The position numbers were made by a program, and so were the translations under genes. This document shows, one piece after another, positions 935-28,690 of a stretch of DNA of 39,263 bases. The notes beneath the pieces are model-generated. The model had not been told where the DNA came from. It was given only the letters and a program-made list of their open reading frames with translations, and did not search any database. The stretch's first letter is position 1. Each line of letters begins with the position of its first letter. Origin of the DNA: a virus (Duplodnaviria; Heunggongvirae; Uroviricota; Caudoviricetes); the IMG/VR virus record IMGVR_UViG_2506520037_000005, positions 1-39,263 of that record. The stretch is one strand, 5' to 3'.

Positions 935-2620
935 GTGAATATAAACGTCGCCGAATTGTTAAATGGGAATTACATTCTGTTATTATTTGTGGTCCTCGCG
1001 CTTGGGCTATGTCTCGGAAAGTTACGACTTGGTTCGATCCAACTGGGTAATTCCATTGGCGTTTTAGTCGTATCGCTGTTATTAGGCCAACAACATTTCA
1101 GCATTAACACCGATGCGCTTAATCTTGGCTTTATGCTGTTTATTTTCTGCGTCGGGGTCGAAGCCGGACCGAACTTTTTTTCCATTTTTTTTCGCGATGG
1201 GAAAAATTACCTAATGTTAGCACTGGTGATGGTTGGCAGTGCGCTGGTGATCGCCTTAGGGTTAGGTAAGCTGTTTGGCTGGGATATTGGCCTGACGGCC
1301 GGTATGTTAGCAGGCTCTATGACGTCGACACCGGTTCTGGTCGGTGCTGGCGATACACTGCGTCATTCCGGCATGGAAAGCAGGCAGCTCTCACTGGCAC
1401 TGGATAATCTGAGCCTCGGGTATGCCTTAACCTATTTAATCGGTCTGGTGAGTTTGATTGTTGGTGCGCGTTACTTGCCGAAATTGCAGCATCAAGACTT
1501 ACAGACCAGCGCCCAGCAAATCGCCCGCGAACGTGGCCTGGACACTGATGCCAACCGTAAGGTTTATTTACCGGTGATCCGCGCCTATCGCGTCGGCCCG
1601 GAGCTGGTGGCCTGGACAGACGGCAAAAATCTGCGTGAACTGGGTATTTATCGACAAACCGGCTGCTACATTGAACGTATTCGACGTAACGGGATTCTGG
1701 CAAATCCAGACGGTGATGCCGTGCTACAAATGGGCGATGAAATAGCGTTGGTAGGCTATCCCGACGCCCATGCCCGACTCGATCCCAGCTTCCGTAACGG
1801 TAAAGAAGTTTTCGATCGTGACCTTCTCGACATGCGTATCGTCACTGAAGAAGTGGTCGTTAAAAACCATAACGCTGTAGGTAAGCGTCTCGCACAACTG
1901 AAGTTGACCGATCACGGTTGCTTCCTTAACCGCGTCATTCGTAGCCAGATTGAGATGCCGATAGATGACAACGTCGTGCTTAACAAAGGTGACGTTTTAC
2001 AAGTCAGCGGTGATGCCCGTCGCGTAAAAACCATCGCCGATCGCATCGGCTTTATCTCGATTCACAGCCAGGTCACTGACCTGCTGGCATTTTGCGCCTT
2101 CTTTGTTATTGGGCTGATGATCGGGATGATCACCTTCCAGTTCAGCACATTCAGTTTCGGCATGGGGAACGCTGCCGGGTTGTTATTCGCCGGAATTATG
2201 CTGGGCTTTATGCGTGCTAACCACCCGACCTTCGGTTACATTCCGCAAGGTGCATTAAGCATGGTGAAAGAGTTCGGCTTGATGGTGTTTATGGCAGGCG
2301 TTGGTCTGAGCGCCGGTAGCGGTATTAATAACGGCCTGGGCGCGATTGGCGGTCAGATGTTGATTGCCGGATTAATTGTCAGTCTTGTGCCCGTGGTTAT
2401 CTGTTTCTTGTTCGGTGCTTATGTATTGCGAATGAACCGCGCACTGTTGTTCGGCGCAATGATGGGCGCACGCACCTGCGCGCCGGCAATGGAGATCATC
2501 AGTGATACAGCTCGCAGTAACATCCCGGCGCTGGGCTATGCGGGCACCTATGCAATCGCCAACGTCCTGCTGACGCTGGCAGGGACAATCATCGTCATGG
2601 TATGGCCAGGATTAGGATAA
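935..2620 (+). CDS. ybjL: Putative transporter YbjL (AAE family, two TM domains flanking TrkA-C-like domains)
   Basis: 561-aa ORF with hydrophobic N- and C-terminal blocks and a soluble central region; recognised as E. coli YbjL; probable GTG start. Confidence 0.85.
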
Positions 2621-2732
2621 AACTGAAGTTGCCCTGAAAATGAAATTTTTTTGCACAACCGCAGAACTTTTCCGCAGGGCATCAGTCTTAATTAGTGCCA
2701 CTGCTTTTCTTTGATGTCCCCATTTTGTGGAG

Positions 2733-2776
2733 CCCATCAACCCCGCCATTTCGGTTCAAGGTTGATGGGTTTTTTG
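2733..2776 (+). terminator. Rho-independent terminator downstream of ybjL
   Basis: Perfect 10-bp inverted repeat cccatcaacc / ggttgatggg followed by TTTTTT. Confidence 0.6.
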
Positions 2777-2855
2777 TTGCCTGAAATTTAAGATGTTTAA
2801 AATCATGATGTTAGAAGCACTGTTTTTTAACGATGGCGACAAAATGGCGGCAGCG

Positions 2856-3074
2856 TCAAAGAGAGAGCGCCACCTGTCCTGATTTCATTGGATGCGGCTG
2901 AACTGGATTCGACTCTTTTGGTGTTGCAATCGAACGAACAAAAGTTTCATGGGTAACAAAAGTATGGCTGCAGTTAATGTTCTGGCACTGGTTATAACGC
3001 TCTTTGGTCAATGAAGATACCTGAAAACTGCTGCGAGTATGGGCGGCACTTCCACACAGTGGGCAAATCATCAT
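2856..3074 (-). CDS. ogr: Ogr/Delta-type zinc-finger late-gene transcription activator
   Basis: 72 aa from internal ATG (MMICPLCGSAAH...CQNINC); CxxC-N-CxxxxC zinc-finger pattern and position next to D as in P2. The longer ORF-track start is probably not used. Confidence 0.8.
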   Translation of the reverse strand: MMICPLCGSAAHTRSSFQVSSLTKERYNQCQNINCSHTFVTHETFVRSIATPKESNPVQPHPMKSGQVALSL

Positions 3075-3164: not shown

Positions 3165-4265
3165 TCATTCCATTTCGAAATCATCAATCCTCACTTCAAG
3201 CTCCAGACTGGTCGTAAAACCGTTATCCGGGTTGACGGTATGTGTCAGGGTGGTAATGGTCCATTCCGCATCATCTATCGGCTGTTTAAAGCCGCTGACC
3301 TTCACAGGCATTTCCGTGTAGAGATCCGCCCGACCTTCCGCCAGTTGTAGCGAGAATGACGCAACACCGCGTTGCAGGCGTTCCCACTGCATTTTCGCTG
3401 CCCGTTCGGCGTTACTCCGATTAGCATAGGTGCGATTAAGTACCAGCACGTTTTCATCCGTCCCCACCAGGTAATCGCCCTGCTTCGCTTCCGGCTCTTT
3501 CTTCTGCTTCTTAGTCCTGCGCTTACGCTTCACCGTGGTGCTTTCTTTCTTCGCGGGTTCGCGGGTATGCAACCAGCTGGCAATTACACCCGTGTAAGCT
3601 CCGCGATCCGCCAGGGTAAAGCGGTGACTGTCGCCGTCCTTACGTGTGATAGTGATCACCGGTAGTGGTTTACCGCTGGCGCTTTTACCCTGTCCCTGCC
3701 GGATGAATAACAGATTGCCATTTTTCACCGACGCAATAGCACCGTACTGTCGCGCCAGCCGCATCAGAAAACTGCCGTCACTCTCATTAGTCTGGTCTAT
3801 ATGCTCCACGGGCTTATCCGACAGGTCTTTACCCAGTGCCATCTTCAGCTTGTGCCGCGCGGCTATTTCCTTCACCACTTCCCCGATGGTGGTGTTATGC
3901 CACGATTTTTCACGGCGGGTATTCAGCGTTTCACGAAAATCAGCACTTCGCGCCCGGATAGTCAGGCGGTCCGGTGCGCCAGTGTGTTCAATCTCGTCCA
4001 CCGTGAATGCCCCTTTCGGGAAAAGCGGCAGCCCCTTCCAGCCCAGCGCCAGCGTAATGACCGCACCACGGCGCGGCAGCACGATTTTTCCGTCGGCGTC
4101 GTCCAGCTCCAGATCAAGCTGGTCCGCTTCAAAGCCCCGATTGTCCGTCAGCGTCAAACTCATCAGGCGGTTATCCAGCACAGTGGTGATATCCCTGCCC
4201 TCAATACTGATGCTGAATGCGGGAGTTTTGTTGCCTTTGTTAAGCACTTCAGAGCTGAAATTCAC
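3165..4265 (-). CDS. D: Tail protein D (late control gene D)
   Basis: 366-aa ORF; position and similarity to P2 gpD as recalled; overlaps U stop/start. Confidence 0.85.
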   Translation of the reverse strand: MNFSSEVLNKGNKTPAFSISIEGRDITTVLDNRLMSLTLTDNRGFEADQLDLELDDADGKIVLPRRGAVITLALGWKGLPLFPKGAFTVDEIEHTGAPDRLTIRARSADFRETLNTRREKSWHNTTIGEVVKEIAARHKLKMALGKDLSDKPVEHIDQTNESDGSFLMRLARQYGAIASVKNGNLLFIRQGQGKSASGKPLPVITITRKDGDSHRFTLADRGAYTGVIASWLHTREPAKKESTTVKRKRRTKKQKKEPEAKQGDYLVGTDENVLVLNRTYANRSNAERAAKMQWERLQRGVASFSLQLAEGRADLYTEMPVKVSGFKQPIDDAEWTITTLTHTVNPDNGFTTSLELEVRIDDFEME

Positions 4266-4747
4266 GGCAGCAGCCCTCCCACCGTTTTACTGATATCGCT
4301 TAAGGCAGACGTTGCCGTGTCCTGCAGATTATTCAGTTGCGCACTGAGATCACCGAACATATCGGACAGGGATTCATCCACCCGTTTGAGCGACAGGGTG
4401 AACTCAATCCGGCGCGGCATACCGTCGCGGAAAAACTCCGTTTTAGTCTGATTCAGTCCCTCAATCACATACATGCCGTAAATCGTGCCGCTGCCTTCAA
4501 TCAGGGGCCATGCTTTTCCCTGTTCTGCCATCTGCTCCAGAGCCAGCAACGACAGCCTGCCGCCCGTTATCTCCGGCATAAGAACACCAGAAAGCGTCAG
4601 CATGTCGTTGTCCGGTCCCAGAAACTGCGTGGACGGACGACGGTTTACCCGGCTGTTTGCCGCATGTCGCCAGCTGCGTTGATACTGCAGTTCCTGATAC
4701 GGAACGGTGCGCAGCATAAACACGTACAATCCCAGCACCATCATCAT
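4262..4747 (-). CDS. U: Tail protein U
   Basis: 161-aa ORF in the P2 gpU position with 4-bp overlap to D. Confidence 0.8.
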   Translation of the reverse strand: MMMVLGLYVFMLRTVPYQELQYQRSWRHAANSRVNRRPSTQFLGPDNDMLTLSGVLMPEITGGRLSLLALEQMAEQGKAWPLIEGSGTIYGMYVIEGLNQTKTEFFRDGMPRRIEFTLSLKRVDESLSDMFGDLSAQLNNLQDTATSALSDISKTVGGLLP

Positions 4748-7700
4748 GCGTCGTATCCCCCCTGATCGCTGTAGTTACTCCTGGCTTTTGCCTTCAGCCT
4801 GCGTTCACGTTCATCAAGCTGGCGTGCCACCTCCCGCGCAATATCCTGCGCACTTTGTCCTGGCTGCGTCTGAATGATGATCTGCGTCGGTGCCTCAATC
4901 CGGTGAACGGGCGGCACAGTGGCTGCACGACTCACCATCGCTTCGCCGCCTTTCGCGGGAAGTGCCAAAGGATGCAACGGTGGAAGCTCTGCAGGCGCGG
5001 CAGCAACGCCCATCATTCCGGCAACAACGGCAGCCAGTGCAGCTGTATTTCTCCGGCTGGTCACATTTGCCGGGCCGTTAACAATTTCCGGCCCGTTTTC
5101 ACCGACGATGCCAAACTGCCCGCGCGGGATATAGCCGCCGCTGTCATACATCCCCGCAAAGCCATATCCCCATGATGGAAAACCACCCGATGGCATCATC
5201 ACTTTACCGTCTGCATTCACCGTCGCAGGTTGCTGACGCGTCACGCTTTCCGGCAGTTTCGCCTTTGCAGCCTCTTTACTGACAATGCCGAGTTTCTCCA
5301 GCAACCAGGAAACGCCGGATTTCAGGGAGTCCAGCGGATGCATGACCATATTCAGCCCTTCCGCCAGTGCCTCCCCGAATCGTCGCCCCATTGCCGCTGC
5401 GCTCTGCAGTTCGGCAGAGGTCGACTTAACGGGCGTCAGCAGATCAGTAAACCAGCCCCACAACGCCTGCACTTTGTCGCCAATCCACTGAAACACAGGC
5501 TTAAGTGGTTCGAATGCTGCACTGATGGGACCTGCCGCCGCTTTGAATCCTTCCACCACACCAGCGAGAAATGCGGTGATGGGTTGCCAGTATTTCCAGA
5601 CAACCAGCGCCACGCCCGCCAGTGCAGTAACCACAAGACCTATCGGACTGAGCAGAGCACCTAACAGACCAGATACGGCATACAGAGCAACGCGCAGCAT
5701 CGCCAGCGGACCGGATGCCAGTACTCGCAGCACCGCGCCTGCGGCAGCCAGTCCACCGCGTAGTGCTGCCAGTGGATTCATAAACATCACAGCAACAGCA
5801 CGTAAACCGGATAATCCAGACCGCAACAGTGCAACCGGCACACCTGCTACAGTTTTCAGGACATTCCCCGTCAGTGATGCCGTGCGGCGCAAAGACGACA
5901 ACGGCGCAGTAAGTAAACCCGCTGCGTTGCCCGATGAAGCAAGCCCGCGTCGCAGCAGTGCCAGTGGAGCGCCAGCTAACCAGGACAACGCGCTGCTGGT
6001 TCGTGTTACTGCTGCCGTAACGGAAGGTAACGTTTTGATACCCAGCACAGAGAATCCCAGACGGATGACTGCCAGCGGTCCCAGCACTGCAGCCAGCGCC
6101 ACCGCTAAGGTGCCGAGGCCTACGGTAACCGCAGCCACAACAGCCGCTACTTTCATCAGTGTGCCTGTCAGTTCCGGGTTAGCTTCCACCCAGCGGCGCA
6201 ACGCCCCCGTGATGCTTTTCACCGTGTACAGAATATCCATCAGCGGCTGGCGCAGCGTTTCGCCCAGGCTGCTGAAGGTATTCTGCGCTCCGGTTTTAAC
6301 CAGCAACCACTGAGCAGAAAGTGAGTCCTTGTTGATGTCGGATTCTTTCTGCATGGAGCCGAGCGCATCATTGCCCGCTGACAGTTTTAGCTGGCGCTGT
6401 AGTTCCGGCAGGTTGTTTGCCAGTTTCGCCGCGTCATCGCCAAACTCTTTACCAAACAACATGGTCATGGCAGACAGACGCTTGTCCTGCGGCAGTGCGT
6501 TCACCTTCTCCAGCACGCGCTGGATGGTTCCCATCGCATCCTTCGTCATCTGCTTTTCAATCACTTCAGGATTGAGTTTCAGCAGATTCATCCCTTCAAA
6601 GAAACTCTTGCTTTGCATGGTGGCAATGGACAATTCACGCACCATCGCGTTTGCTGCACTGGCTGCAACCTCCGGCGCAGCGCCCAGTGTCAGGAAGGTG
6701 GAACCCAGCGCCGCCGCTTTACGATAATCCAGACGGTCAGCCACACCGCCCAGGCGTTGCATCACATCAATGATGTCCCCCCCTTTCGACATGGCGTTAT
6801 CATCCAGATAGTTCAGCGCATCACCGAGCTGTTCAATATTGCGGGTAGGGATTTTGTAAAGCTGGGCGATTTTCCCCAGACTTTCTGACAGTTCATCCGC
6901 TGGCAGCTCAAAGGCTGTTGCCGCCTTTGCTGCCGTGCTGGCGAAGGCCAGCAGGTCACGTTTCTGGTCTTCCCAGCTGTCGTCAGGGTTTGCGACGTTC
7001 ATGCGCGCACCACCTTCAACCAGTGCGGCGAAGTCCACAGCACCGTTTTCCATCGGCAACTGTTCGCTGGCAGCCTTGATGGCATCCTGCATTTCATAAA
7101 AACGTGCAGTACGGTTTCCATTATCGTCACGCAGACCATTGACCTGCTTTGCCACACCTTTCATGGCATCTTCCATGCTGGTATAGCTTTTTACTGCCGC
7201 CATCACTGGCGTCCCCATTGCCAGCCCTGCAGCCGTGGTAGTGGCTCCAGCTCCTGCAATACGATCGCGCACCTCCAGCGAACGGGCATAACTGGCACGC
7301 GCTGCATTCATCCTGCGCTGAGCTTCCCCCAGTCTCTTCAGCCGCGCCTCCTGTTTCGACAGTTCCTGGTTATAACGTGATGTTTCACGGGCTAAACGGG
7401 CAGTTGCTCCCGCATCATCTTTCGCAGAAATTCCCGCCCGGTACAGTTCTGCACGCACAAGCGCCGTTTGCTTCTGCAAATATTTTTGTTGTTCTTCCAG
7501 GCGTTGGACTGCCAGCGTTTGCCGACCTAAAGCCACAAGATGCCTTTGTGATGGTTGTTCCATCGCCTCCAGCTCAGAGCTAAGCAAATTAGCCTTCTGT
7601 CTGGCATAGTTCAGCCTGTCGCCTAACTTCTTGTTATCGGCCTGCAGCTTGCGAAATTTTTCCAGGCTGTTACCCGCCTGATTGAGTTGCTTTAATGCGT

Positions 7701-7821
7701 CACGGGAGTTTCTGATTGCGCCAGCCAGCTCTTTCGAACTGGCCTGTGCAGCACGGAATGGGCGGGTGAGTTTGTCAACCGCATTAAGAATGACCTGCAG
7801 CCGCAGGTTATTATCACTCAT
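4744..7821 (-). CDS. T: Tail tape measure protein T
   Basis: 1025-aa ORF, Ala/Gly-rich with coiled-coil N-terminus and hydrophobic central region; position between E and U. Confidence 0.85.
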   Translation of the reverse strand: MSDNNLRLQVILNAVDKLTRPFRAAQASSKELAGAIRNSRDALKQLNQAGNSLEKFRKLQADNKKLGDRLNYARQKANLLSSELEAMEQPSQRHLVALGRQTLAVQRLEEQQKYLQKQTALVRAELYRAGISAKDDAGATARLARETSRYNQELSKQEARLKRLGEAQRRMNAARASYARSLEVRDRIAGAGATTTAAGLAMGTPVMAAVKSYTSMEDAMKGVAKQVNGLRDDNGNRTARFYEMQDAIKAASEQLPMENGAVDFAALVEGGARMNVANPDDSWEDQKRDLLAFASTAAKAATAFELPADELSESLGKIAQLYKIPTRNIEQLGDALNYLDDNAMSKGGDIIDVMQRLGGVADRLDYRKAAALGSTFLTLGAAPEVAASAANAMVRELSIATMQSKSFFEGMNLLKLNPEVIEKQMTKDAMGTIQRVLEKVNALPQDKRLSAMTMLFGKEFGDDAAKLANNLPELQRQLKLSAGNDALGSMQKESDINKDSLSAQWLLVKTGAQNTFSSLGETLRQPLMDILYTVKSITGALRRWVEANPELTGTLMKVAAVVAAVTVGLGTLAVALAAVLGPLAVIRLGFSVLGIKTLPSVTAAVTRTSSALSWLAGAPLALLRRGLASSGNAAGLLTAPLSSLRRTASLTGNVLKTVAGVPVALLRSGLSGLRAVAVMFMNPLAALRGGLAAAGAVLRVLASGPLAMLRVALYAVSGLLGALLSPIGLVVTALAGVALVVWKYWQPITAFLAGVVEGFKAAAGPISAAFEPLKPVFQWIGDKVQALWGWFTDLLTPVKSTSAELQSAAAMGRRFGEALAEGLNMVMHPLDSLKSGVSWLLEKLGIVSKEAAKAKLPESVTRQQPATVNADGKVMMPSGGFPSWGYGFAGMYDSGGYIPRGQFGIVGENGPEIVNGPANVTSRRNTAALAAVVAGMMGVAAAPAELPPLHPLALPAKGGEAMVSRAATVPPVHRIEAPTQIIIQTQPGQSAQDIAREVARQLDERERRLKAKARSNYSDQGGYDA

Positions 7822-8250
7822 CGTTGGCCCCGCTTCTCTGAATCGCTTTATACCGCCATTCCAGCACTTCGGTCAGCGGCATAACGTCAGTAACGGATGG
7901 CGGCCAGTGAAAAATGGTGGCGATATCTGCCACCAGATCGTCAACCGTCAGGCTGTCGGTAAACCGGCAAGCACCGACTTCTTCAACAAAAAAGTGACAA
8001 CCTCAACCGACATGGCAGTGAGATCTGCCGGGTCCATCTCTGCAATTTCCTGTGCAGTCAGTGCCGGACTGGAGATGCGGGGGATCACGGTCATCATCGC
8101 GTTCACATCCATATCCATAATGGCCTGCAGGCGTGTACCGCGCAGCGCACCGGACTGCGGTTTACGCAGCACAATTTCGGTGATTTCTGTTTTACCGCGC
8201 TTGATGGGGGTATCCAGTTGAATGGTCTTTTCAGTCTGCTTATCACTCAT
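7814..8250 (-). CDS. E': E+E' tail chaperone produced by programmed -1 frameshift
   Basis: Slippery heptamer T_TTT_TTG near the 3' end of E (minus strand, about 7987-7993); the -1 frame stays open for 56 codons and stops at a TGA overlapping the T start (ATGAGTGA). I translated this by hand. Confidence 0.7.
7948..8250 (-). CDS. E: Tail assembly chaperone E
   Basis: 100-aa ORF upstream of T in the P2 gpE position. Confidence 0.8.
   Translation of the reverse strand: MSDKQTEKTIQLDTPIKRGKTEITEIVLRKPQSGALRGTRLQAIMDMDVNAMMTVIPRISSPALTAQEIAEMDPADLTAMSVEVVTFLLKKSVLAGLPTA
7987..7993 (-). other. Slippery site TTTTTTG for the E/E' -1 ribosomal frameshift
   Basis: Six T then G on the coding strand, in frame as ACT-TTT-TTG in the E reading frame. 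Confidence 0.65.
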
Positions 8251-8304: not shown

Positions 8305-8820
8305 TCAGAGGCCGAGGGCGTTGCGGTGCGCTTCCATCAGGTCCATACCGTCCACAATTTCCACCATGTTGATAAGGTCCACTTCATAGAGCACCTCACC
8401 ATTGATGGTCAGCTTCGCGTAGCTGTTGGTACTGGTCACTTTGGTGGTGTTGCTTTCGCCCGTCTTCCACTCGCCGGAATCCACTTCTTTGTGACGTCCA
8501 CGCACCACAAGCTCCACGGCCTGCACTTCTCCGGTATCGTCACGCTGGATAGAGCCGGTAAAGCGCAACTGGATGCCATCCACCGTGGCTTTGCCCATCT
8601 GCTTAAACAGCAGCAGTTCAGTACCACCAATGGAAAATTCTGTGTCCAGCGCACTGTCATCAAGCCCCAGATCCACATCAACTGCACCAGGCATTCCGCC
8701 GCCGCGATACTTCTCATATTTGCGGGTGAATTTCGGCAGCGTCAGCGACTCTACGATCCCCTGCCAGTTGTTCCCGTCGTTAAACAGGTTCAGATGTTTT
8801 AATTTGCGTGGTAAAGCCAT
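8305..8820 (-). CDS. FII: Tail tube protein FII
   Basis: 171-aa ORF directly downstream of FI; P2 gpFII size and position. Confidence 0.85.
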   Translation of the reverse strand: MALPRKLKHLNLFNDGNNWQGIVESLTLPKFTRKYEKYRGGGMPGAVDVDLGLDDSALDTEFSIGGTELLLFKQMGKATVDGIQLRFTGSIQRDDTGEVQAVELVVRGRHKEVDSGEWKTGESNTTKVTSTNSYAKLTINGEVLYEVDLINMVEIVDGMDLMEAHRNALGL

Positions 8821-8829
8821 GTTGTCCCC

Positions 8830-10002
8830 TTACGCGCTGACCTGGCTGGCGAAATTCACCAGGTACTGATCGGTGATGCGCTGGCGCAGCATCAGATTTT
8901 CAAGTGGCGGCACTGGCGTGTAGTCATAGTCGATGGTGAGTTTTCCGGCTTTCAGCGTGTCTTTGTCGTTCACCGACTCATCCAGCCAGCAATCACCACC
9001 AATGAGATAGCCCTGACTGACCAGGCTGCGCATTTTGGCGCGGATACCTTCGATAATGTCGCGGGCCAGCGACGGGTTAAGCGGTTTATCCACCGCCCAC
9101 ATGTGTGCTTCTGCCATCGTGTCCATCAGCACCTGCGCCGTGCGGGTGTAGTTTTCGAAGGCAAAGAGCGGGTCATCACTCAGGCAGCGGGAACCCCAGA
9201 AGCGGAACCCGTCTTTACGCACAAGCGTGGTGACGTCGTTCTGGTTCAGCAGACCTGCATCGGTTGCCGGGTCCTGCAGATCCCAGAACACATCTGCAGA
9301 AATTCCGGTGACACCGTTCACGCCCACGTTGGACAGGCTTTTGTGCCATCCGGTCTGCTCGTCAATTTTGGCGCGCAGACCAAGCGCACGGGCGGTGGCA
9401 TATGCCGTTGCTTCGGCATTCAGCACCGTGTCCCAGCCAGTAAAGTCAGGCCAGATCAGCATCCCTTCGCGCTGGCTGAAGTTTTCACGGTAAGTGATCG
9501 CCTCCTGTACCGTCTTGCAGCCATACGCTGACAGGTAAGCAAACCCACGCAGGCTTTGCGCCACGCTCAGCAACTCAGTAGCTACCGCCTTGGTGTCGTG
9601 GCCTGGCACGCCGAGAATGCGCGGTTTAACGCCGAGCTGTGACTGGGCAGATAACAGGGCTTTCATACCTGTTTTTTTACCTTCAGCAGTCACTGCGCCG
9701 ATGATATTGGTCGTGGTTTCGTCTTCCGTTTCACCCTGCGGCACACGCACAACAACGGTCACGGGTTTTGCCTGGTCAGCGATGGCATCCAGCGAACGGG
9801 CCAGCGTGCCGGACTCACCCGCTTTACCGCTGGCAGTCAGCACATCAGTGATCAGCACGGGTTGATTAAGAGGAAACATTTTTGCATCGGCATCATCGCC
9901 CGTGCAGACCATACCCACGATGGCGGTGCTCACCGTGGTAATGGATCGGGTGCCTTCGTTGACTTCAACAACGCGCACCCCGTGGTGGTAATCCTGAGCC
10001 AT
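8830..10002 (-). CDS. FI: Tail sheath protein FI
   Basis: 390-aa ORF; P2 gpFI size and position; first gene of the F operon. Confidence 0.85.
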
Positions 10003-10144: not shown

Positions 10145-10711
10145 TCAGGGGGATTCATTACTCTTATTTGCCGGAAATTTTCTATAAATTGTGGAAACAC
10201 CCACATCAAAAATCAGTGCAATACGCTGTCTTGATTCTCCGGCCTCGAGTAAGCGTCCAATCTGTGCCCACTGTTCGGTGGTCAACTTAGGACGGCGTCC
10301 ACCTACTCTGCCTTTGGCGCGAGCTGCAGCAAGCCCCGCCCTGGTACGTTCAACTATCAGTTCGCGTTCCATTTCAGCCAGGGCACCCATGACATGAAAA
10401 AAGAAACGGCCCATTGGGGTACTGGTATCAATACTGTCAGTCAGGCTTCGGAAATTCACACCTCGCTGGCGCAACTCTTCTATCAACGTAACAAGATGCC
10501 GCATACTGCGCCCCAACCTGTCCAGCTTCCAGACAACCAAAGTGTCACCTGCCGATAATGTCCTGAGCAGTTTTTTCAGTCCCGGTCTGTCGGACTTAGT
10601 GCCACTGATTTTGTCCTCAAAAATCCGCTCACATCCCGCGCAGTTCAGCGCATTACGTTGCAAATCGGTGTTCTGGTCATTTGTTGACACGCGTACATAG
10701 CCAATAAGCAT
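10145..10711 (-). CDS. Serine DNA invertase (Gin/Hin/Pin/Cin family)
   Basis: MLIGYVRVSTNDQNTDLQRNAL... with catalytic-serine motif and C-terminal HTH; near-collinear with Mu Gin as recalled. Real start is probably the ATG giving MLIGY (188 aa). Confidence 0.9.
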   Translation of the reverse strand: MLIGYVRVSTNDQNTDLQRNALNCAGCERIFEDKISGTKSDRPGLKKLLRTLSAGDTLVVWKLDRLGRSMRHLVTLIEELRQRGVNFRSLTDSIDTSTPMGRFFFHVMGALAEMERELIVERTRAGLAAARAKGRVGGRRPKLTTEQWAQIGRLLEAGESRQRIALIFDVGVSTIYRKFPANKSNESP

Positions 10712-10766
10712 GATCAATCCCCTGAATAAAAACCGGGGATGATGCCAGTTAGCCGTTATCTCTGCA

Positions 10767-10792
10767 TTTTCATAAACGTTGGTTTGGGAGAA
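10767..10792. other. Invertase crossover site, right (26-bp imperfect palindrome, gix/hix-like)
   Basis: TTTTCATAAACG TT GGTTTGGGAGAA; its right 14 bp are identical to the inverted copy inside gene H; lies 55 bp from the invertase start. Confidence 0.75.
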
Positions 10793-11122
10793 GCCAGATA
10801 TGTCATTCAGCGAGGAGCTAATGCCAATGGTGCATGGATACGCTGGTCAGATGGTGCAATAGAAGTATTTGGAACCGGTGGATCTAATGATAATGGACTG
10901 GCTAAAGTTGTTTACCCAATTGCACTGCCTAAACTTTCACGTTTTATCAGTATCGCGGAAAGAATAAGAACGGATTACGAGAGCACACCTAATAATGTTC
11001 ACGTTTCAATGATCGTGGATGATCAGGTAACAAATACCGGCTTTTATGCCCGCTGCCAGATGTACGACGGCAGACCATCATCAAATGCTTTTTCCTGGAG
11101 GGTTTATTGTGCGCCTGTTTAA
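10781..11122 (+). CDS. Promoterless alternative tail-fibre C-terminal segment (Sv'), expressed only after inversion
   Basis: The plus-strand ORF reads GLGE... in the same frame and from the same shared 14-bp core as the H gene; inversion would fuse the H constant part to this 113-codon segment. Confidence 0.6.
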   Translation, partial: GLGEARYVIQRGANANGAWIRWSDGAIEVFGTGGSNDNGLAKVVYPIALPKLSRFISIAERIRTDYESTPNNVHVSMIVDDQVTNTGFYARCQMYDGRPSSNAFSWRVYCAPV

Positions 11123-11141
11123 TCCAGTTACTTTGTAGTGG

Positions 11142-12398
<1,257 letters not shown>

Positions 12399-12535
12399 TG
12401 AAGTAATCCCCGGTCTTCATGACGTGACCGGGGCTATTGAATTACCGGAGGACAACTGGTTTTTTACTATGACAGAAATTCCTCAGGGCATGGAGCTAAC
12501 AATTAATGAGAAAGGCGAACCAATACTAATTGAGG

Positions 12536-13141
12536 TTAATCAGTCTCAGGGAATACAGGCCAAATAATATCAGGCGCGGTGCTGGTATCTGTTGCCGTCA
12601 CCGCGTCAGTGTAATCCAGCACAGCGTTAAGCCGGGTTGTTTCTGCCTGCGTCAGTTTCCGCCCGGCCTGTAATTTCAGCTGAATCAGACTAATGGAAGC
12701 CATTGCTGCATCAATCAGTGACTGACGCTGTGCTTCTGCCGCTTCTACTGCGGCACCGTGTTGTGCCTCAGTATCCGTCACCCATTTCTCACCATCCCAT
12801 TTATCGTATGGCGTTAATGGGGCGATAGTGGTTGTATTATCAGGGTAATTACCCGGAGCTGTGATTTCTTTTGATTCTCCTGTTGCGGTGCTAAAGACGA
12901 TTTCACCGCGATGGTCTGGCACATATTCCCATGAGTTAAAATCTGCAGAACGGCAGATTGTATAACCAGCTTTGTATGCGCCTGGAGCATCTAAACAGGA
13001 ACATGCCGGAATGCCGACACCAACGGCAAGATATTCAGTCGATATGGAAATATATTCCCGTGTTTCACCATCATAATTATAGACAGTAATATTCCCCGCC
13101 TTCGTGGCAATAAACTCGCTATTTAATACAGTGCTATCCAT
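12536..13141 (-). CDS. G: Tail fibre assembly protein (gpG/Tfa)
   Basis: 201-aa ORF immediately downstream of the tail fibre gene with 1-bp overlap. Confidence 0.8.
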   Translation of the reverse strand: MDSTVLNSEFIATKAGNITVYNYDGETREYISISTEYLAVGVGIPACSCLDAPGAYKAGYTICRSADFNSWEYVPDHRGEIVFSTATGESKEITAPGNYPDNTTTIAPLTPYDKWDGEKWVTDTEAQHGAAVEAAEAQRQSLIDAAMASISLIQLKLQAGRKLTQAETTRLNAVLDYTDAVTATDTSTAPDIIWPVFPETD

Positions 13142-14655
13142 TATGCAGCCCTCACAATGTAGTTAAATGCGATGTTGCGTGGACGGACACCGAAATAAGA
13201 AGTAACACCATTCATTGTCAAATTTCCAGAGCCAAAAGCGGTAAAACCAGAACCAGCATTAACTGCCGAATCCGCGTTTCTGACAAAGTTTTTGGGAGGT
13301 GAACCGGAGACACCAGCCGAAATATCATCAGCATTACCGCCATTGCCGTGGTGGTTAGTTATCTTTGTTTCCGCCTGCGCCGTCAACAAACCTCGTCCAG
13401 AGTCAACCCCGCGCCCGTCATCCCAGCCGCGAATAAACTCACCACGTAAATCAGGCAATTTATTTGCCGGATAAGCCTTTGCCAGTTCCGGGTATTCTTC
13501 AGCAGAAAAAGCCGCGCCGTTGCATTTCAGCCAGCCTGTTGGCGGAGTGGCGGAAGGCCATGGAACAGGGACACCAACGGGTAATGCAGAGCCTTCTCCC
13601 AAACCAAGGTATGCGAGAAGACCAGCTACATCCTTTCCACTCAAATTGGTAAGCGTATTGTCCAGCGGTTGTTTACCTGCCAGCGCATTAAGCATTGTCG
13701 TGGCAAAGTTCGGATCATTCCCCAGTGCCGCCGCCAGTTCGTTCAGTGTATCCAGTGCCGCAGGTGCAGAACCCACCATTGCTGCAATCGCTGATTTCAC
13801 AAAAGCTGTAGTGGCAATCTGTGTATTGTTGACCGACTGTGCCGCAGTAGGTGCTGTTGGCGTTCCGGTGAGTGCCGGACTCGACAGCGGTGCTTTTAGT
13901 GCCAGCGCATTGTTAATGGTGGTACTGAATTTCGGGTCATTGTTAATGGCTGCGGCAATTTCTTTCAGTGTGTCCAGCGTGGCTGGCGCACCGTTAATCA
14001 GAGCAGTAATAGCGGCCTGAACAAACTCAGTGGTCGCAATCCGCGTGGTGTTATTTCCTGCTGCAGGCGTCGGCGCTTTTGGTTCTCCGGTAAATGTCGG
14101 ATTATGTTTCTGCGCATACTGGGTATGAGGATCTTGTGCGGCAATGTGGTTTCTCATCTGGTCATCCACATACAGCTTTAATTCCAGGACTTCATCATCC
14201 ACGTATTTACGGGTTGCCAGCACTACAGCAGGGTCGATTTTCAGGGTGATATTGTCCGTACTGCTGGTAATCAGCACCATGCGCACGGTCTGGGTGCGCC
14301 CGCTGCCTTCAGCCAGTTGCGGCTTATAGCTTTCCGGGCAGTTGCCCACGGCAATCAATGCCCCGGACTCATCAAACAGGCCCACTTCACGTATCCACCA
14401 ACCGCCCTCGTTTTCAGGGATCACCTGTTCAGCAATAATCTGGCTGCTGTTCTGCGGGTCGATATAAAGCATATTCAGCGCAGCCCGGCGTTTCTCATTT
14501 ACCAGTGCCGTCTGCTTTGCGTCCGGCGTTGGCAATACTCCGCCGCCATCGCCCACCGCCATATGGGTAATTTTTAGCGGCACACCGAGCGCGGCGGCGC
14601 TGGCAAGTTTCGCCGCGCCAATATCCGTCAGCAGGGTATAAAATTTTGTGCTCAT
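13141..14655 (-). CDS. H: Tail fibre protein H (constant N-terminus plus invertible variable C-terminus)
   Basis: 504-aa ORF with repeated alanine-rich motifs (AAAINNDPKF / AAALGNDPNF) and a WLKCNGAAFS...YPELAKAY fibre tip; a crossover site lies within it. Confidence 0.85.
   Translation of the reverse strand: MSTKFYTLLTDIGAAKLASAAALGVPLKITHMAVGDGGGVLPTPDAKQTALVNEKRRAALNMLYIDPQNSSQIIAEQVIPENEGGWWIREVGLFDESGALIAVGNCPESYKPQLAEGSGRTQTVRMVLITSSTDNITLKIDPAVVLATRKYVDDEVLELKLYVDDQMRNHIAAQDPHTQYAQKHNPTFTGEPKAPTPAAGNNTTRIATTEFVQAAITALINGAPATLDTLKEIAAAINNDPKFSTTINNALALKAPLSSPALTGTPTAPTAAQSVNNTQIATTAFVKSAIAAMVGSAPAALDTLNELAAALGNDPNFATTMLNALAGKQPLDNTLTNLSGKDVAGLLAYLGLGEGSALPVGVPVPWPSATPPTGWLKCNGAAFSAEEYPELAKAYPANKLPDLRGEFIRGWDDGRGVDSGRGLLTAQAETKITNHHGNGGNADDISAGVSGSPPKNFVRNADSAVNAGSGFTAFGSGNLTMNGVTSYFGVRPRNIAFNYIVRAA
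13594..13619. other. Invertase crossover site, left (inside gene H)
   Basis: TTCTCCCAAACC AA GGTATGCGAGAA, an inverted copy of the site at 10767-10792 with a matching central dinucleotide. Confidence 0.75.
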
Positions 14656-26908: not shown

Positions 26909-28690
26909 TCATTTAAAACGTGTTGCAATATCTGCTGCTTCGATAACTGTTGCTTTTACGGTATTATCGCCAGCACGATAATAAATATCCCCATCATAAC
27001 TAGAATAAGATGCTAGAAGTGGAATTGTAATAACTATAACTCCATAACCATAAAAGTCATTATAGTCAATCAAACTCACCACTTGTGATTTAAGAGGCTC
27101 ACTCAAAGCAGATTTTTTCAACTCATCGCAAAAACGTCTATAATATTCTTCCATTGATATGCCGAGTTTAATAGCTTCTCTTTTAACACCAACAACACTT
27201 CTCTCACCAACTACATGTGCATCTATATCATCAAGCTCTTTTACTCTACTTGTATCACTTGGTTTATCTGTTACACCAAGCAATAACTTACCAACTACAC
27301 CGTTCTTGTTACCTTTACCGATGTTAGCAATAGCACAAATTGTGGAGAATATTTTCTCATGAATGCCATCATCAATAGTTCGCTCTCCGCCTAACATCAA
27401 CAAACCCTGTTTCAGTTCATAATTTGCAAGCTCTATTTCAGATCTTCGTAAAATATCCTCAATATCCACCGTATTGTGAGAATTATAGATATGACTGCTA
27501 TCGGCGCTATCAATAAAGTTATCTTTAATCAAGCCTATGATAGAATTAATATTCTTTCTTCTCTCTTCCCCACCAGTAGCAGATCTTTTAGTATCTAGTC
27601 GAGTGACTATATTATTAAGATTGTCTTTTACACCTTTATAATTATTAATCTTCTTATTTTCTTTAATGAGTAATTCATGAAAAGCAATAAATAACACAGC
27701 AAATATGGCTGGGAAAGCATTTGTAGTACGTTTAGTAAAGATTAAATCCCTGAGTTTAATTTCACCGTCACTATTACATACTTTTGTTATTTCCTGGATG
27801 CAGAATTTAAACTCTTCTGCAAATTTTCCTTCACCATAAACATTAATAGCAGAGCTAATACGACTATACTCTTCATCTTCATTATTATAAATCTGATCAA
27901 GCGCATCTTTGGAACGATCTATTAACTTACCTCCAACAATACAAGCTGCTATATCTGCAATGCATTGCTCATCCATACTGTCACGAAGGTCTGTTGAACG
28001 TAAGATCCCATGTTTTACCCAAAATACTTCTTCCGACTGAATTTGGTAACCATGTTTAGTTAGTGGCAAATCAATGCTAATAGACGGCATTTGCTCTAAA
28101 AGCAATATGTCGTCAGATACATCCCCCCTGATAGAACAGGCAATATCCCTAACCATATTTGAAAATTTATTTTGTATACCAGCCTGGCGCCTTTCTTGAT
28201 CACTAAGTCTATGCCCGTATGTATTAATTCTATCAAAAACATCATTTATTTCGTTCTCAGTCGCATTACGCATAATGGACATTGCAAGAGAATAATCCAA
28301 TAACTGAGTAACCTCACGCTGACTTAAAAGATTATCAGCTTTCACTGCAACAAACTTACCTTCATCCGCTCGATTTTTCGCTGTGGGAAAAGCGTCCAGA
28401 TTAAAACGTTTTCCATCAAGTGATTCATATCCTGTTTCGATGAAAGACATTATTGCATGTAATCTTTGTAGGCCATCAATTATTTCATATGTGCCAGGAT
28501 CATTTTCCCTTTCCGCGAGAAGAACTGCAGGAATTGGATATTTTTTTTGAATGGATTCAATTAATTTTTGTTTCTCTATTGCAGTCCAAACTAATTTTCG
28601 TTGATAACGTCTATTAACAAATATCTTACCTTCAGTAAACCATGAATAAATAGTTTGTATAGAAGTTGTTTGCGGTAATAGTTCAGCCAT
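26909..28690 (-). CDS. DUF262 (ParB-like nuclease superfamily) protein, 593 aa, candidate anti-phage defence protein
   Basis: N-terminal DUF262 signature motifs (NRRYQRKLVW; IIDGLQRL, a DGQQR variant); AT-rich codon usage; lies in the Q-to-A variable region. No recognisable HNH motif in the C-terminal half. Confidence 0.7.
   Translation of the reverse strand: MAELLPQTTSIQTIYSWFTEGKIFVNRRYQRKLVWTAIEKQKLIESIQKKYPIPAVLLAERENDPGTYEIIDGLQRLHAIMSFIETGYESLDGKRFNLDAFPTAKNRADEGKFVAVKADNLLSQREVTQLLDYSLAMSIMRNATENEINDVFDRINTYGHRLSDQERRQAGIQNKFSNMVRDIACSIRGDVSDDILLLEQMPSISIDLPLTKHGYQIQSEEVFWVKHGILRSTDLRDSMDEQCIADIAACIVGGKLIDRSKDALDQIYNNEDEEYSRISSAINVYGEGKFAEEFKFCIQEITKVCNSDGEIKLRDLIFTKRTTNAFPAIFAVLFIAFHELLIKENKKINNYKGVKDNLNNIVTRLDTKRSATGGEERRKNINSIIGLIKDNFIDSADSSHIYNSHNTVDIEDILRRSEIELANYELKQGLLMLGGERTIDDGIHEKIFSTICAIANIGKGNKNGVVGKLLLGVTDKPSDTSRVKELDDIDAHVVGERSVVGVKREAIKLGISMEEYYRRFCDELKKSALSEPLKSQVVSLIDYNDFYGYGVIVITIPLLASYSSYDGDIYYRAGDNTVKATVIEAADIATRFK

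What the first reader, a model, noticed from the sequence alone, without database searches (positions are those of the whole stretch)
7814..8250. Programmed -1 frameshift producing the E+E' tail chaperone
The slippery heptamer T_TTT_TTG lies near the end of E, and the -1 frame stays open for 56 codons, ending at a TGA overlapping the tape-measure start. This conserved tail-chaperone recoding is the only way the 7822-7947 interval is coding and would be missed by ORF calling.
Basis: partly seen in the sequence, partly recalled or inferred. Interest (0 to 1): 0.35.

Follow-up and report, generated by a model that had tools for sequence, protein, structure and literature searches.

The report
P2-type tail chaperone frameshift (E/E+E')
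This is the well-known programmed -1 ribosomal frameshift that lets P2-like phages make two tail-assembly chaperones (E and the longer E+E') from one start codon; it is intact in this E. coli prophage and is ordinary for the family.

Summary
E runs 8250-7948 (100 aa). The heptamer T_TTT_TTG is at 7993-7987 in the X_XXY_YYZ phase, 12 codons before E's stop. The -1 frame is open from 8002 to a TGA at 7816-7814, overlapping the tape-measure ATG (7821) by 8 nt.

- E matches Pfam Phage_TAC_7 (1e-18) and the -1 frame matches Phage_P2_GpE (4e-19).
- The locus sits between the tube gene FII and the tape-measure gene T.
- The same reconstruction on P2 gives the published 91/142 aa products.
- All 64 distinct close relatives keep six invariant T's, including a four-fold degenerate site.
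- Across 15 diverse P2-family sequences an in-phase slippery heptamer is always present.
- The most variable codon position moves by -1 after E's stop.

Not supported: independent initiation of the 39-aa GpE ORF (as RefSeq annotates it), transcriptional slippage, an antisense ORF, and a downstream stimulatory hairpin.

The event was described for P2 in 2002 and is noted in the Fels-2 record (89% identical), so it is already known. No experiment exists for this prophage. A possible upstream Shine-Dalgarno-like modulator is the only mildly new lead.

The parts
7948..8250 (-). Gene E: tail assembly chaperone, 100 aa, 10.9 kDa, the zero-frame product
   Evidence: ORF listing. Pfam PF10109 Phage_TAC_7, E = 1e-18, covering residues 9-88. 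PHROG 103 'tail protein', 4e-44. RefSeq name 'phage tail assembly protein'.
7987..7993 (-). Slippery heptamer T_TTT_TTG, the -1 frameshift site (P-site codon TTT 7992-7990, A-site codon TTG 7989-7987)
   Evidence: The six T's are invariant in 64 distinct relatives that are 76-99.8% identical to the window. This includes the four-fold degenerate third base of ACT (7993) and the TTT/TTC site (7990), while neighbouring third positions have 1.0-1.7 bits of entropy. The same in-phase T6N is present in 12 of 15 diverse P2-family sequences (the window plus 14 phage-record loci).
7814..8250 (-). E+E' fusion reading unit, 145 aa, about 16.1 kDa. Zero frame 8250..7987, then -1 frame 7987..7817, stop TGA 7816-7814.
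   Evidence: Pfam finds PF10109 and PF06528 on the one conceptual product. tblastn of the fusion hits 416 phage records, in two pieces (two frames) in 38 of the 40 records listed.
7948..7986 (-). Dual-coding overlap of 39 nt: the E C-terminus in frame 0 and the E' linker in frame -1
   Evidence: No substitutions against Fels-2 here, although the flanks differ at 42 sites upstream and 16 downstream. Entropy is low at all three codon positions, 0.16/0.13/0.27.
7817..7947 (-). E'-only coding segment in the -1 frame. The Pfam GpE domain covers fusion residues 107-143 = 7933..7823.
   Evidence: PF06528 Phage_P2_GpE, E = 4e-19, profile 1-37 of 37. The variable codon position is -1-frame position 3 (entropy 0.066/0.448/0.172 by E-frame position; substitutions by -1-frame position 4/2/10 against Fels-2 and 3/3/13 against ST437).
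7814..7933 (-). 39-codon GTG ORF that RefSeq annotates as a stand-alone 'GpE family phage tail protein'. Here it is read as the C-terminal part of E+E', not an independent gene.
   Evidence: The aligned codon is ATT, ATT, GCC and GTT in 4 of the 15 sequences, so it is not a conserved start. None of the eight strongest anti-SD matches in this mRNA lies upstream of it.
4744..7821 (-). Gene T, tape measure protein, 1025 aa. Its ATG (7821-7819) is overlapped by the end of E'.
   Evidence: Pfam PF10145 PhageMin_Tail, 1.2e-18. The strongest anti-SD match in the E..E' mRNA is at 7836, upstream of this ATG.
8305..8820 (-). Gene FII, tail tube protein, the upstream neighbour that defines the chaperone position
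   Evidence: Pfam PF04985 Phage_tube, 3e-59.
8000..8004 (-). SD-like GAGGT, 6 nt upstream of the heptamer. A candidate modulator, not established.
   Evidence: Second strongest anti-SD duplex in the E..E' mRNA, -6.3 kcal/mol. The GAG third base is invariant in 64 sequences, but so are 3 other codons among the 40 invariant-aa codons. Upstream SD-like strength is in the top 10% of windows in 8 of 12 lineages.

Best explanation
The locus is the E/E+E' tail-assembly-chaperone pair of a P2-family (Fels-2-like, Felsduovirus-type) prophage of E. coli. It is expressed by a programmed -1 ribosomal frameshift.

Mechanism. Ribosomes start at the E ATG (8250). Most terminate at TGA 7950-7948 and give the 100-aa E protein. 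A minority slip one base backwards on U_UUU_UUG (7993-7987). In that event tRNA-Phe re-pairs from UUU to UUU, and tRNA-Leu re-pairs from UUG to UUU. The ribosome then reads 57 further codons in the -1 frame and stops at TGA 7816-7814, inside the first codons of T. The product is the 145-aa E+E'.

Function, by analogy with lambda G/GT. The shared E part is inferred to coat the tape-measure protein T. The E' extension is inferred to recruit the tube protein FII. A fixed low E+E':E ratio would be set by the frameshift efficiency.

Shown here:
- the anatomy of the site;
- homology of both halves;
- selection on the heptamer;
- a coding frame that switches by -1.

Inferred:
- that the shift is ribosomal;
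- its efficiency;
- the chaperone roles of the two parts.
For: (1) Anatomy: an in-phase T_TTT_TTG 12 codons before E's stop, a -1 frame open from 8002 to 7817, and a stop overlapping the ATG of T.

(2) Homology: E matches PF10109 (1e-18) and the -1 frame matches PF06528 (4e-19, full length). The neighbours are the sheath, tube, tape measure, gpU and gpD proteins.

(3) The same procedure applied to a P2 record gives 91 and 142 aa, as published. In P2 the shift occurs at TTTTTTG (PMC3091744; PMC3931495, both citing Christie et al. 2002).

(4) Family conservation. All 15 diverse sequences (the window plus 14 phage-record loci: P2, 186, PSP3, Fels-2, KS14, Smp131, Mannheimia, Ralstonia, Halomonas and others) have an in-phase slippery heptamer inside the overlap and a conserved 'ADIAxxFHW...WRxxA' peptide in the -1 frame. 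All 75 distinct IMG/VR relatives have T_TTT_TTR at the same codon.

(5) Selection on the RNA, not only on the protein. The six T's are invariant in 64 distinct sequences, including synonymous sites.

(6) Frame switch. Variability peaks at E-frame position 3 upstream (0.81 bits) and at -1-frame position 3 downstream of E's stop (0.45 against 0.07 and 0.17). Pairwise substitution counts agree.

(7) The curated records for Fels-2, 186, PSP3, KS14 and Smp131 annotate this same frameshift.
Against: There are no expression data for this prophage. RefSeq annotates E and a 39-aa GpE ORF as two separate genes with no slippage.

No stimulatory RNA structure is supported. The fold z-score is -1.5. The candidate hairpin has no covariation and a consensus energy of -2.9 kcal/mol. 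Efficiency therefore cannot be predicted.

U_UUU_UUG is not among the classically most efficient E. coli heptamers (my own knowledge).

The lambda-style division of labour between E and E' is an analogy. It has not been shown for P2-type proteins, which share no detectable sequence similarity with lambda G/GT.
Confidence: 0.93

Rival explanations
1. E' is an independent small gene. The 39-aa 'GpE family' peptide would be initiated at GTG 7933, as RefSeq annotates it, and no frameshift would be needed.
For: A GTG or ATG occupies this position in 11 of the 15 sequences. PGAP calls it as a CDS in E. coli W and other genomes. The Pfam GpE domain begins exactly there.
Against: The aligned codon is ATT (Mannheimia, uncultured 2F_1), GCC (Ralstonia) or GTT (Kp4850-1) in four lineages. 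No SD-like sequence lies upstream. The -1-frame peptide upstream of it is conserved between the window, P2 and 186, including the part that is E'-only in P2 (FFV..G...F...L[ST]xDDL). PHROG 1756 aligns across the junction, residues 84-145. Selection on synonymous sites of the heptamer would be left unexplained. For P2, E' is described as lacking an RBS and being made by frameshift (PMC3931495).
Confidence: 0.03
2. The frame change is made by RNA polymerase slippage on the T6 run, giving an mRNA one base shorter or two longer, rather than by the ribosome.
For: The site is a homopolymeric run. The protein outcome would be nearly identical, and sequence analysis alone cannot fully separate the two.
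Against: Three lineages use non-homopolymeric but in-phase tandem-slippage heptamers: G_GGA_AAG, A_AAT_TTT and C_CCT_TTC. The X_XXY_YYZ phase is kept in every lineage, which polymerase slippage does not require. Six T's is shorter than the runs known to give efficient transcriptional slippage in bacteria (my own knowledge). The P2 event is described as translational (PMC3091744).
Confidence: 0.03
3. The site is a relic. The prophage is defective, so the recoding signal, although intact, has no present function.
For: An IS3-family element sits inside the tail-fibre invertible segment. Nothing here shows that the prophage is inducible.
Against: FI, FII, E, E', T, U and D are all intact full-length ORFs with strong Pfam matches. 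In the window's orientation the fibre gene is a complete 504-aa ORF followed by its assembly chaperone. The 651-bp region is 100% identical in the twelve top-listed E. coli genomes, at least 99% in 48 records, and present in 999 of 5426 complete genomes. Substitution patterns show purifying selection in both frames.
Confidence: 0.05
4. The coding sequence is really the 179-aa plus-strand ORF 7682..8221, antisense to E and E'.
For: It is a long open frame. Its third codon positions coincide with those of E, so the periodicity within E does not exclude it.
Against: It has no Pfam match, whereas both minus-strand frames have strong matches. The variable position shifts by one base at E's stop, which a single continuous plus-strand frame cannot explain.
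Confidence: 0.005

Closest known systems
Bacteriophage P2 genes E and E+E' (FETUD operon; Christie, Temple, Bartlett & Goodwin 2002, J Bacteriol 184:6522, as cited in PMC3091744 and PMC3931495)
   Same: Position between FII and T. The TTTTTTG heptamer in the same phase. A -1 frame ORF without an RBS that ends over the start of T. The same two Pfam families. Fusion 145 aa here against 142 aa in P2, about 48% identical.
   Different: E continues 12 codons past the heptamer here, against 6 in P2, so the dual-coding overlap is longer. The stop of E' is TGA rather than TAA. The internal codon aligned to the Met of P2 is GTG. The sequence is diverged by about 52%.
Salmonella phage Fels-2 STM2699 / STM2697.1 (Felsduovirus), and Klebsiella phage 4LV2017 / Escherichia phage Cartapus
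   Same: Fusion 88.8% identical to Fels-2, with identical lengths (100 and 145 aa), the same heptamer position and an identical 39-nt overlap. The Fels-2 record already notes 'forms functional gpE+E' if translational slippage occurs'. 4LV2017 and Cartapus are 97.5-98.4% identical at the DNA level.
   Different: Only point substitutions, mostly synonymous in the frame in use.
Phage lambda G / GT tail assembly chaperones (Levin, Hendrix & Casjens 1993; Xu, Hendrix & Duda 2004, 2013, 2014; summarised in PMC5009743)
   Same: The same gene position (between the major tail/tube gene and the tape measure). [quoted passage not shown] The presumed roles are also the same: binding the tape measure and recruiting the tube subunit.
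   Different: No detectable sequence similarity; the Pfam hits here are only PF10109 and PF06528. The heptamer differs (lambda uses G_GGA_AAG, from my own knowledge). P2-type tails are contractile. The functional split between E and E' is inferred, not demonstrated.
E. coli dnaX gamma/tau -1 frameshift
   Same: A tandem-slippage X_XXY_YYZ heptamer in E. coli. An SD-like element upstream of the site is possible here too.
   Different: dnaX has a strong downstream hairpin and an SD 10 nt upstream (my own knowledge). Here no hairpin is supported and the SD-like element is only 4-7 nt upstream. The dnaX shift truncates the product, whereas this one extends it.

Membership tests
P2-type E/E+E' tail chaperone pair with programmed -1 frameshift | Located between the tail tube gene (FII) and the tape-measure gene (T) in an FI-FII-E-T-U-D late operon | tested here: met
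   Sheath 8830-10002, tube 8305-8820, E 7948-8250, T 4744-7821, U 4262-4747 and D 3165-4265, all on the minus strand with matching Pfam families.
P2-type E/E+E' tail chaperone pair with programmed -1 frameshift | The upstream ORF is a gpE homologue | tested here: met
   PF10109 Phage_TAC_7, 67.5 bits against a cut-off of 25. It aligns with P2, 186, KS14 and others.
P2-type E/E+E' tail chaperone pair with programmed -1 frameshift | A -1 frame ORF overlaps the 3' end of E and is homologous to P2 E' | tested here: met
   PF06528 Phage_P2_GpE, 68.2 bits against a cut-off of 23, full profile. The -1 frame is open for 62 codons, against 13 for the +1 frame.
P2-type E/E+E' tail chaperone pair with programmed -1 frameshift | An in-phase slippery heptamer (T_TTT_TTG in P2) lies within the E/E' overlap | tested here: met
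   7993-7987, phase confirmed. Invariant in 64 distinct relatives.
P2-type E/E+E' tail chaperone pair with programmed -1 frameshift | E' has no ribosome-binding site or conserved start codon of its own, and it overlaps the start of T | tested here: met
   No ATG, GTG or TTG in the -1 frame between 8002 and 7934 (read). No strong anti-SD match upstream of 7933. The start codon is not conserved. The overlap with T is 8 nt.
P2-type E/E+E' tail chaperone pair with programmed -1 frameshift | The fusion protein is actually made, at a low fixed ratio, and both E and E+E' are required for tail assembly | not testable with these tools
   This needs a western blot, mass spectrometry or a reporter assay, plus genetics. 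The evidence exists only for P2 itself (Christie 2002).
Lambda G/GT family (sequence membership) | Sequence or profile similarity to lambda gpG/gpGT | tested here: not met
   A Pfam scan at E <= 0.01 returns only PF10109 and PF06528. It works like G/GT but is not a sequence-family member.
dnaX-type stimulated -1 frameshift | A conserved stimulatory hairpin or pseudoknot 5-9 nt downstream of the heptamer | tested here: not met
   Fold z-score -1.49. For the candidate hairpin, the covariation score equals the shuffled mean (0.095 against 0.095), with 1 compensatory cell. The RNAalifold consensus energy is -2.87 kcal/mol. This agrees with the reported absence of such a structure in P2.
dnaX-type stimulated -1 frameshift | An internal Shine-Dalgarno element upstream of the heptamer | tested here: inconclusive
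   GAGGT at 8004-8000. It ranks in the top 10% of windows in 8 of 12 lineages. The result is confounded by the conserved E/K-V-V codons and by shared ancestry, and the spacing of 4-7 nt is shorter than in dnaX.

The most novel reading that the evidence does not exclude
P2-family slip sites may carry a conserved internal Shine-Dalgarno-like element ((G/A)AGGTG, here GAGGT at 8004-8000) 4-7 nt upstream of T_TTT_TTG. In the absence of any downstream RNA structure, it would tune frameshift efficiency and hence the E:E+E' ratio. This would be a compact variant of the dnaX arrangement that, as far as I could check, has not been described for tail-chaperone frameshifts.
Probability: 0.15. Interest if true: 0.3.

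Novelty: already known. Interest (0 to 1): 0.1.

Why it matters
Scientifically this adds little. The E/E+E' frameshift is a textbook case of recoding in P2-like phages, and the conserved tail-chaperone frameshift is a standard landmark for phage annotators.

The practical value is in annotation. RefSeq/PGAP lists E and a 39-aa 'GpE family' ORF as two genes in all twelve top-listed records of the 999 complete E. coli genomes that hold this region. As a result the real 145-aa product, and 23 of its codons, are missing from protein databases. A simple rule would fix this: PF10109 followed by PF06528 in the -1 frame, with an in-phase T6N heptamer in the overlap.

The site is also a clean natural example of a stimulator-less U_UUU_UUG shift for anyone measuring frameshift efficiencies.

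Tried and rejected
- My first automatic E-finder chose the longest frame spanning a fixed position. It picked the wrong frame in 6 of 15 loci. I redid the analysis with annotated coordinates.
- A downstream stimulatory hairpin (GUCGGU 7978-7973 paired with ACCGAC 7960-7955, 8 nt after the heptamer) looked attractive, and one Klebsiella sequence seemed compensatory. Covariation counting and RNAalifold do not support it, and the overall fold is not better than shuffles.
- The antisense 179-aa ORF has no Pfam match.
- NCBIfam gave no hit for E, the fusion or the 39-aa ORF.
- The PDB sequence search gave no hit, so no structural comparison was made. I did not run structure prediction because it would not test the recoding claim.
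- The primary P2 paper (PMC135442) is not in the held library. Its content is cited second-hand from PMC3091744 and PMC3931495.
- One literature search failed on a term that was too short and I did not repeat it.
- Invariance of the GAG codon as evidence for an SD-like element is weak, because 4 of the 40 invariant-aa codons are equally invariant.
Full report
**What is in the sequence**

All genes of this region lie on the minus strand.
- Reading that strand, an ATG at 8250 opens a 100-codon ORF, E, which ends at TGA 7950-7948.
- The next large ORF is the 1025-aa tape-measure gene T (ATG 7821, ending at 4744). It leaves 126 nt (7947-7822) with no zero-frame coding capacity.
- TTTTTTG occurs at 7993-7987. 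Relative to E, the codons are ACT TTT TTG, so the phase is X_XXY_YYZ, as -1 tandem slippage requires. The heptamer lies 12 codons before E's stop.
- The -1 frame is closed by a TGA at 8005-8003, opens at 8002 and stays open to TGA 7816-7814. That stop overlaps the start of T within ATGAGTGA.
- After a tandem slip, 57 sense codons are read in the new frame. The count is 58 if one includes a re-read TTT.
- The predicted products are E (100 aa, 10.9 kDa) and E+E' (145 aa, 16.1 kDa). Residue 88 is Leu under simultaneous slippage and Phe under P-site-only slippage.

**Is it more than chance?**

The heptamer alone is not. The window holds 18 copies on both strands against 11.9 +/- 3.6 expected, and 4 of 100 shuffles reach 18. 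Several other things are not chance:
- It is the only in-phase XXXYYYZ heptamer in E, and it falls in the 17-codon stretch where a -1 shift is productive.
- The -1 frame translation matches Pfam PF06528 'Phage P2 GpE' over the whole 37-position profile (E = 4e-19). E matches PF10109 'Phage tail assembly chaperone proteins E, or 41 or 14' (E = 1e-18).
- The +1 frame is open for only 13 codons.

**Context**

The flanking genes are:
- the tail sheath (8830-10002);
- the tail tube FII (8305-8820);
- the tape measure T;
- gpU (4262-4747);
- gpD (3165-4265).

This is the P2 FI-FII-E-E'-T-U-D late operon. The window is a P2-family prophage that is 100% identical to the one next to ybjL in E. coli W, apart from one inverted segment. 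The 651-bp E region occurs in 999 of 5426 complete E. coli genomes. The nearest named phages are Klebsiella phage 4LV2017 and Escherichia phage Cartapus (97.5-98.4% DNA identity) and Salmonella phage Fels-2 (fusion 88.8% identical).

**Comparison with relatives**

A tblastn search with the conceptual fusion finds 416 phage records. In 38 of the 40 listed, the match is in two pieces, meaning two reading frames.

I fetched 14 annotated or unannotated loci spanning the Peduoviridae: P2, 186, PSP3, Fels-2, KS14, Smp131, Mannheimia, Ralstonia, Halomonas, an uncultured skin phage, three Klebsiella/E. coli types and one near-identical E. coli record.
- Counting the window, 12 of the 15 sequences have an in-phase T_TTT_TTN inside the overlap.
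- The other three have different in-phase slippery heptamers: G_GGA_AAG, A_AAT_TTT and C_CCT_TTC.
- All 15 have a -1 ORF encoding the conserved 'ADIAxxFHW...WRxxA' peptide. In all but the Mannheimia and Smp131 loci that ORF ends at or over the start of the tape-measure gene.
- Applied to the P2 record, my reconstruction gives 91 aa and 142 aa, the published sizes. This validates the procedure (PMC3091744).
- The records for 186, PSP3, KS14, Smp131 and Fels-2 already annotate the frameshift.

A scan of IMG/VR gave 80 further loci with 75 distinct sequences. Every one has T_TTT_TTR at the same codon.

**Evidence of selection**

In 64 distinct, ungapped relatives (76-99.8% identical to the window):
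- Per-site entropy upstream of the heptamer is 0.21/0.11/0.81 bits at E-frame codon positions 1/2/3.
- Downstream of E's stop it is 0.07/0.45/0.17. The variable position has moved to -1-frame position 3.
- In the 39-nt overlap all three positions are constrained (0.16/0.13/0.27).
- Pairwise counts agree. Against Fels-2 there are 32 of 42 substitutions at E-frame position 3 upstream, none in the overlap, and 10 of 16 at -1-frame position 3 downstream.
- The six T's never vary. This includes the four-fold degenerate third base of ACT (7993) and the TTT/TTC site (7990). Adjacent third positions show 1.0-1.7 bits.
- Only 4 of 40 other invariant-aa codons are frozen in the same way.

So the heptamer is selected as a nucleotide sequence, not only for the amino acids it encodes.

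**Rival readings**

(a) Independent initiation of the 39-aa ORF at GTG 7933, as RefSeq annotates it.
- The aligned codon is ATT, ATT, GCC and GTT in four lineages.
- No SD-like sequence precedes it.
- The -1 peptide upstream of it is conserved, and PHROG 1756 spans the junction.
- For P2, E' is described as lacking an RBS (PMC3931495).

(b) Transcriptional slippage. The three non-homopolymeric in-phase heptamers and the universal phase conservation argue for tRNA slippage. This rival cannot be fully excluded in silico.

(c) The antisense 179-aa ORF. It has no Pfam match, and the periodicity shift is incompatible with one continuous frame.

(d) A decayed prophage. All tail genes are intact and under purifying selection.

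**Stimulators**

No downstream structure is supported.
- The 114 nt starting at the heptamer fold no better than shuffles (z = -1.49).
- A candidate 6-bp hairpin 8 nt downstream shows no covariation. Its score equals the shuffled mean, there is one compensatory cell, and the consensus energy is -2.9 kcal/mol.
- This agrees with the reported absence of such structures in P2, KS5, KS14 and KL3.

Upstream there is an SD-like GAGGT at 8004-8000.
- Across 12 lineages, the 18 nt before the slip site are in the top 10% of anti-SD affinity in 8 cases. The naive combined p is 2e-5.
- However, the motif coincides with the conserved E/K-V-V codons, and the lineages are homologous.
- The spacing of 4-7 nt is shorter than in dnaX.

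I record this as a lead, not a finding.

**Mechanism and function**

The best-supported model is a programmed -1 ribosomal frameshift at U_UUU_UUG, giving a minor E+E' alongside the major E.

By analogy with lambda G/GT (PMC5009743), the shared E moiety would bind the tape-measure protein and the E' extension would recruit the tube protein. Neither would remain in the finished tail. These functional steps are inferred. What the data here show is the anatomy, the homology, the frame switch and the selection on the slip site.

**Novelty and verdict**

The recoding event was described experimentally for P2 in 2002. It has been generalised to tailed phages, and it is written into the Fels-2 record for a protein 89% identical to this one.

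The residual value lies in annotation, because RefSeq splits the product, and in the unproven SD-like lead.

Confidence in the main explanation is 0.93. Interest is 0.1.

Noticed in passing
window 10776-13607 (inverted repeats 10767-10793 / 13593-13619); recombinase 10145-10717 (-): A 2.8-kb segment is inverted relative to the otherwise 100% identical E. coli W chromosome (99.97% identity in the opposite orientation). It is bounded by 27-nt imperfect inverted repeats and lies next to a serine recombinase (Pfam Resolvase + HTH_7). This is a Gin/Cin/Hin-type invertible tail-fibre switch caught in the other orientation. In the window's orientation the fibre gene is a complete 504-aa ORF (13141-14655, -) followed by a Caudo_TAP assembly gene (12536-13141, -).
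   Followed up: partly
window 11142-12355 (-): An IS3-family element lies inside the invertible segment: orfA with HTH_Tnp_1 (12008-12355) and orfB with rve (11142-11888). RefSeq marks it as a programmed-frameshift transposase. It sits directly after the alternative fibre C-terminal arm (plus-strand ORF 10739-11122), which it probably truncates, so only one of the two fibre variants would be functional.
   Followed up: partly
window 8000-8004 (-), and the equivalent position in L001, L002, L005, L009, L010, L011, L012: An SD-like (G/A)AGGTG element lies 4-7 nt upstream of the slip heptamer in 8 of 12 P2-family lineages. The third base of the GAG codon is invariant in 64 relatives. It could modulate frameshifting, or it could simply reflect the conserved E/K-V-V residues.
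   Followed up: partly
window 7814-7933 and 7948-8250 (-); L015 20101-20537: RefSeq/PGAP annotates E ('phage tail assembly protein') and a GTG-started 39-aa 'GpE family phage tail protein' as separate CDSs with no ribosomal-slippage join. In the same record it does annotate the IS3 transposase frameshift. The 145-aa product is therefore absent from the annotation, and the same split is listed for all twelve top-listed genomes of the 999 that hold this region.
   Followed up: yes
window 26909-28690 (-): A GmrSD-type restriction endonuclease gene (Pfam GmrSD_N, 1.6e-22) sits next to the portal gene. It is a likely anti-phage defence cargo (moron) of the prophage.
   Followed up: no
window 7682-8221 (+): A 179-aa ORF lies antisense to E/E', and its third codon positions coincide with those of E. 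It has no Pfam match and is judged to be a shadow ORF. It is a reminder that periodicity within E alone cannot assign the strand.
   Followed up: yes
window 935-3074: The prophage's right end: an ogr/Delta-like zinc-finger late activator gene maps to about 2856-3074 (-). The host gene ybjL (aspartate:alanine antiporter) is at 935-2620 (+). The attachment junction therefore lies between about 2620 and 2856 (mapping).
   Followed up: no
L008 (Mannheimia phage phiMhaA1) 994-1000; L013 961-967; L014 952-958: Three P2-family lineages have replaced T_TTT_TTG with other in-phase slippery heptamers (G_GGA_AAG, as in lambda G/GT from my own knowledge; A_AAT_TTT; C_CCT_TTC), while keeping the E' peptide. 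In the Mannheimia record and the uncultured 2F_1 record (L011), E' is not annotated at all.
   Followed up: partly
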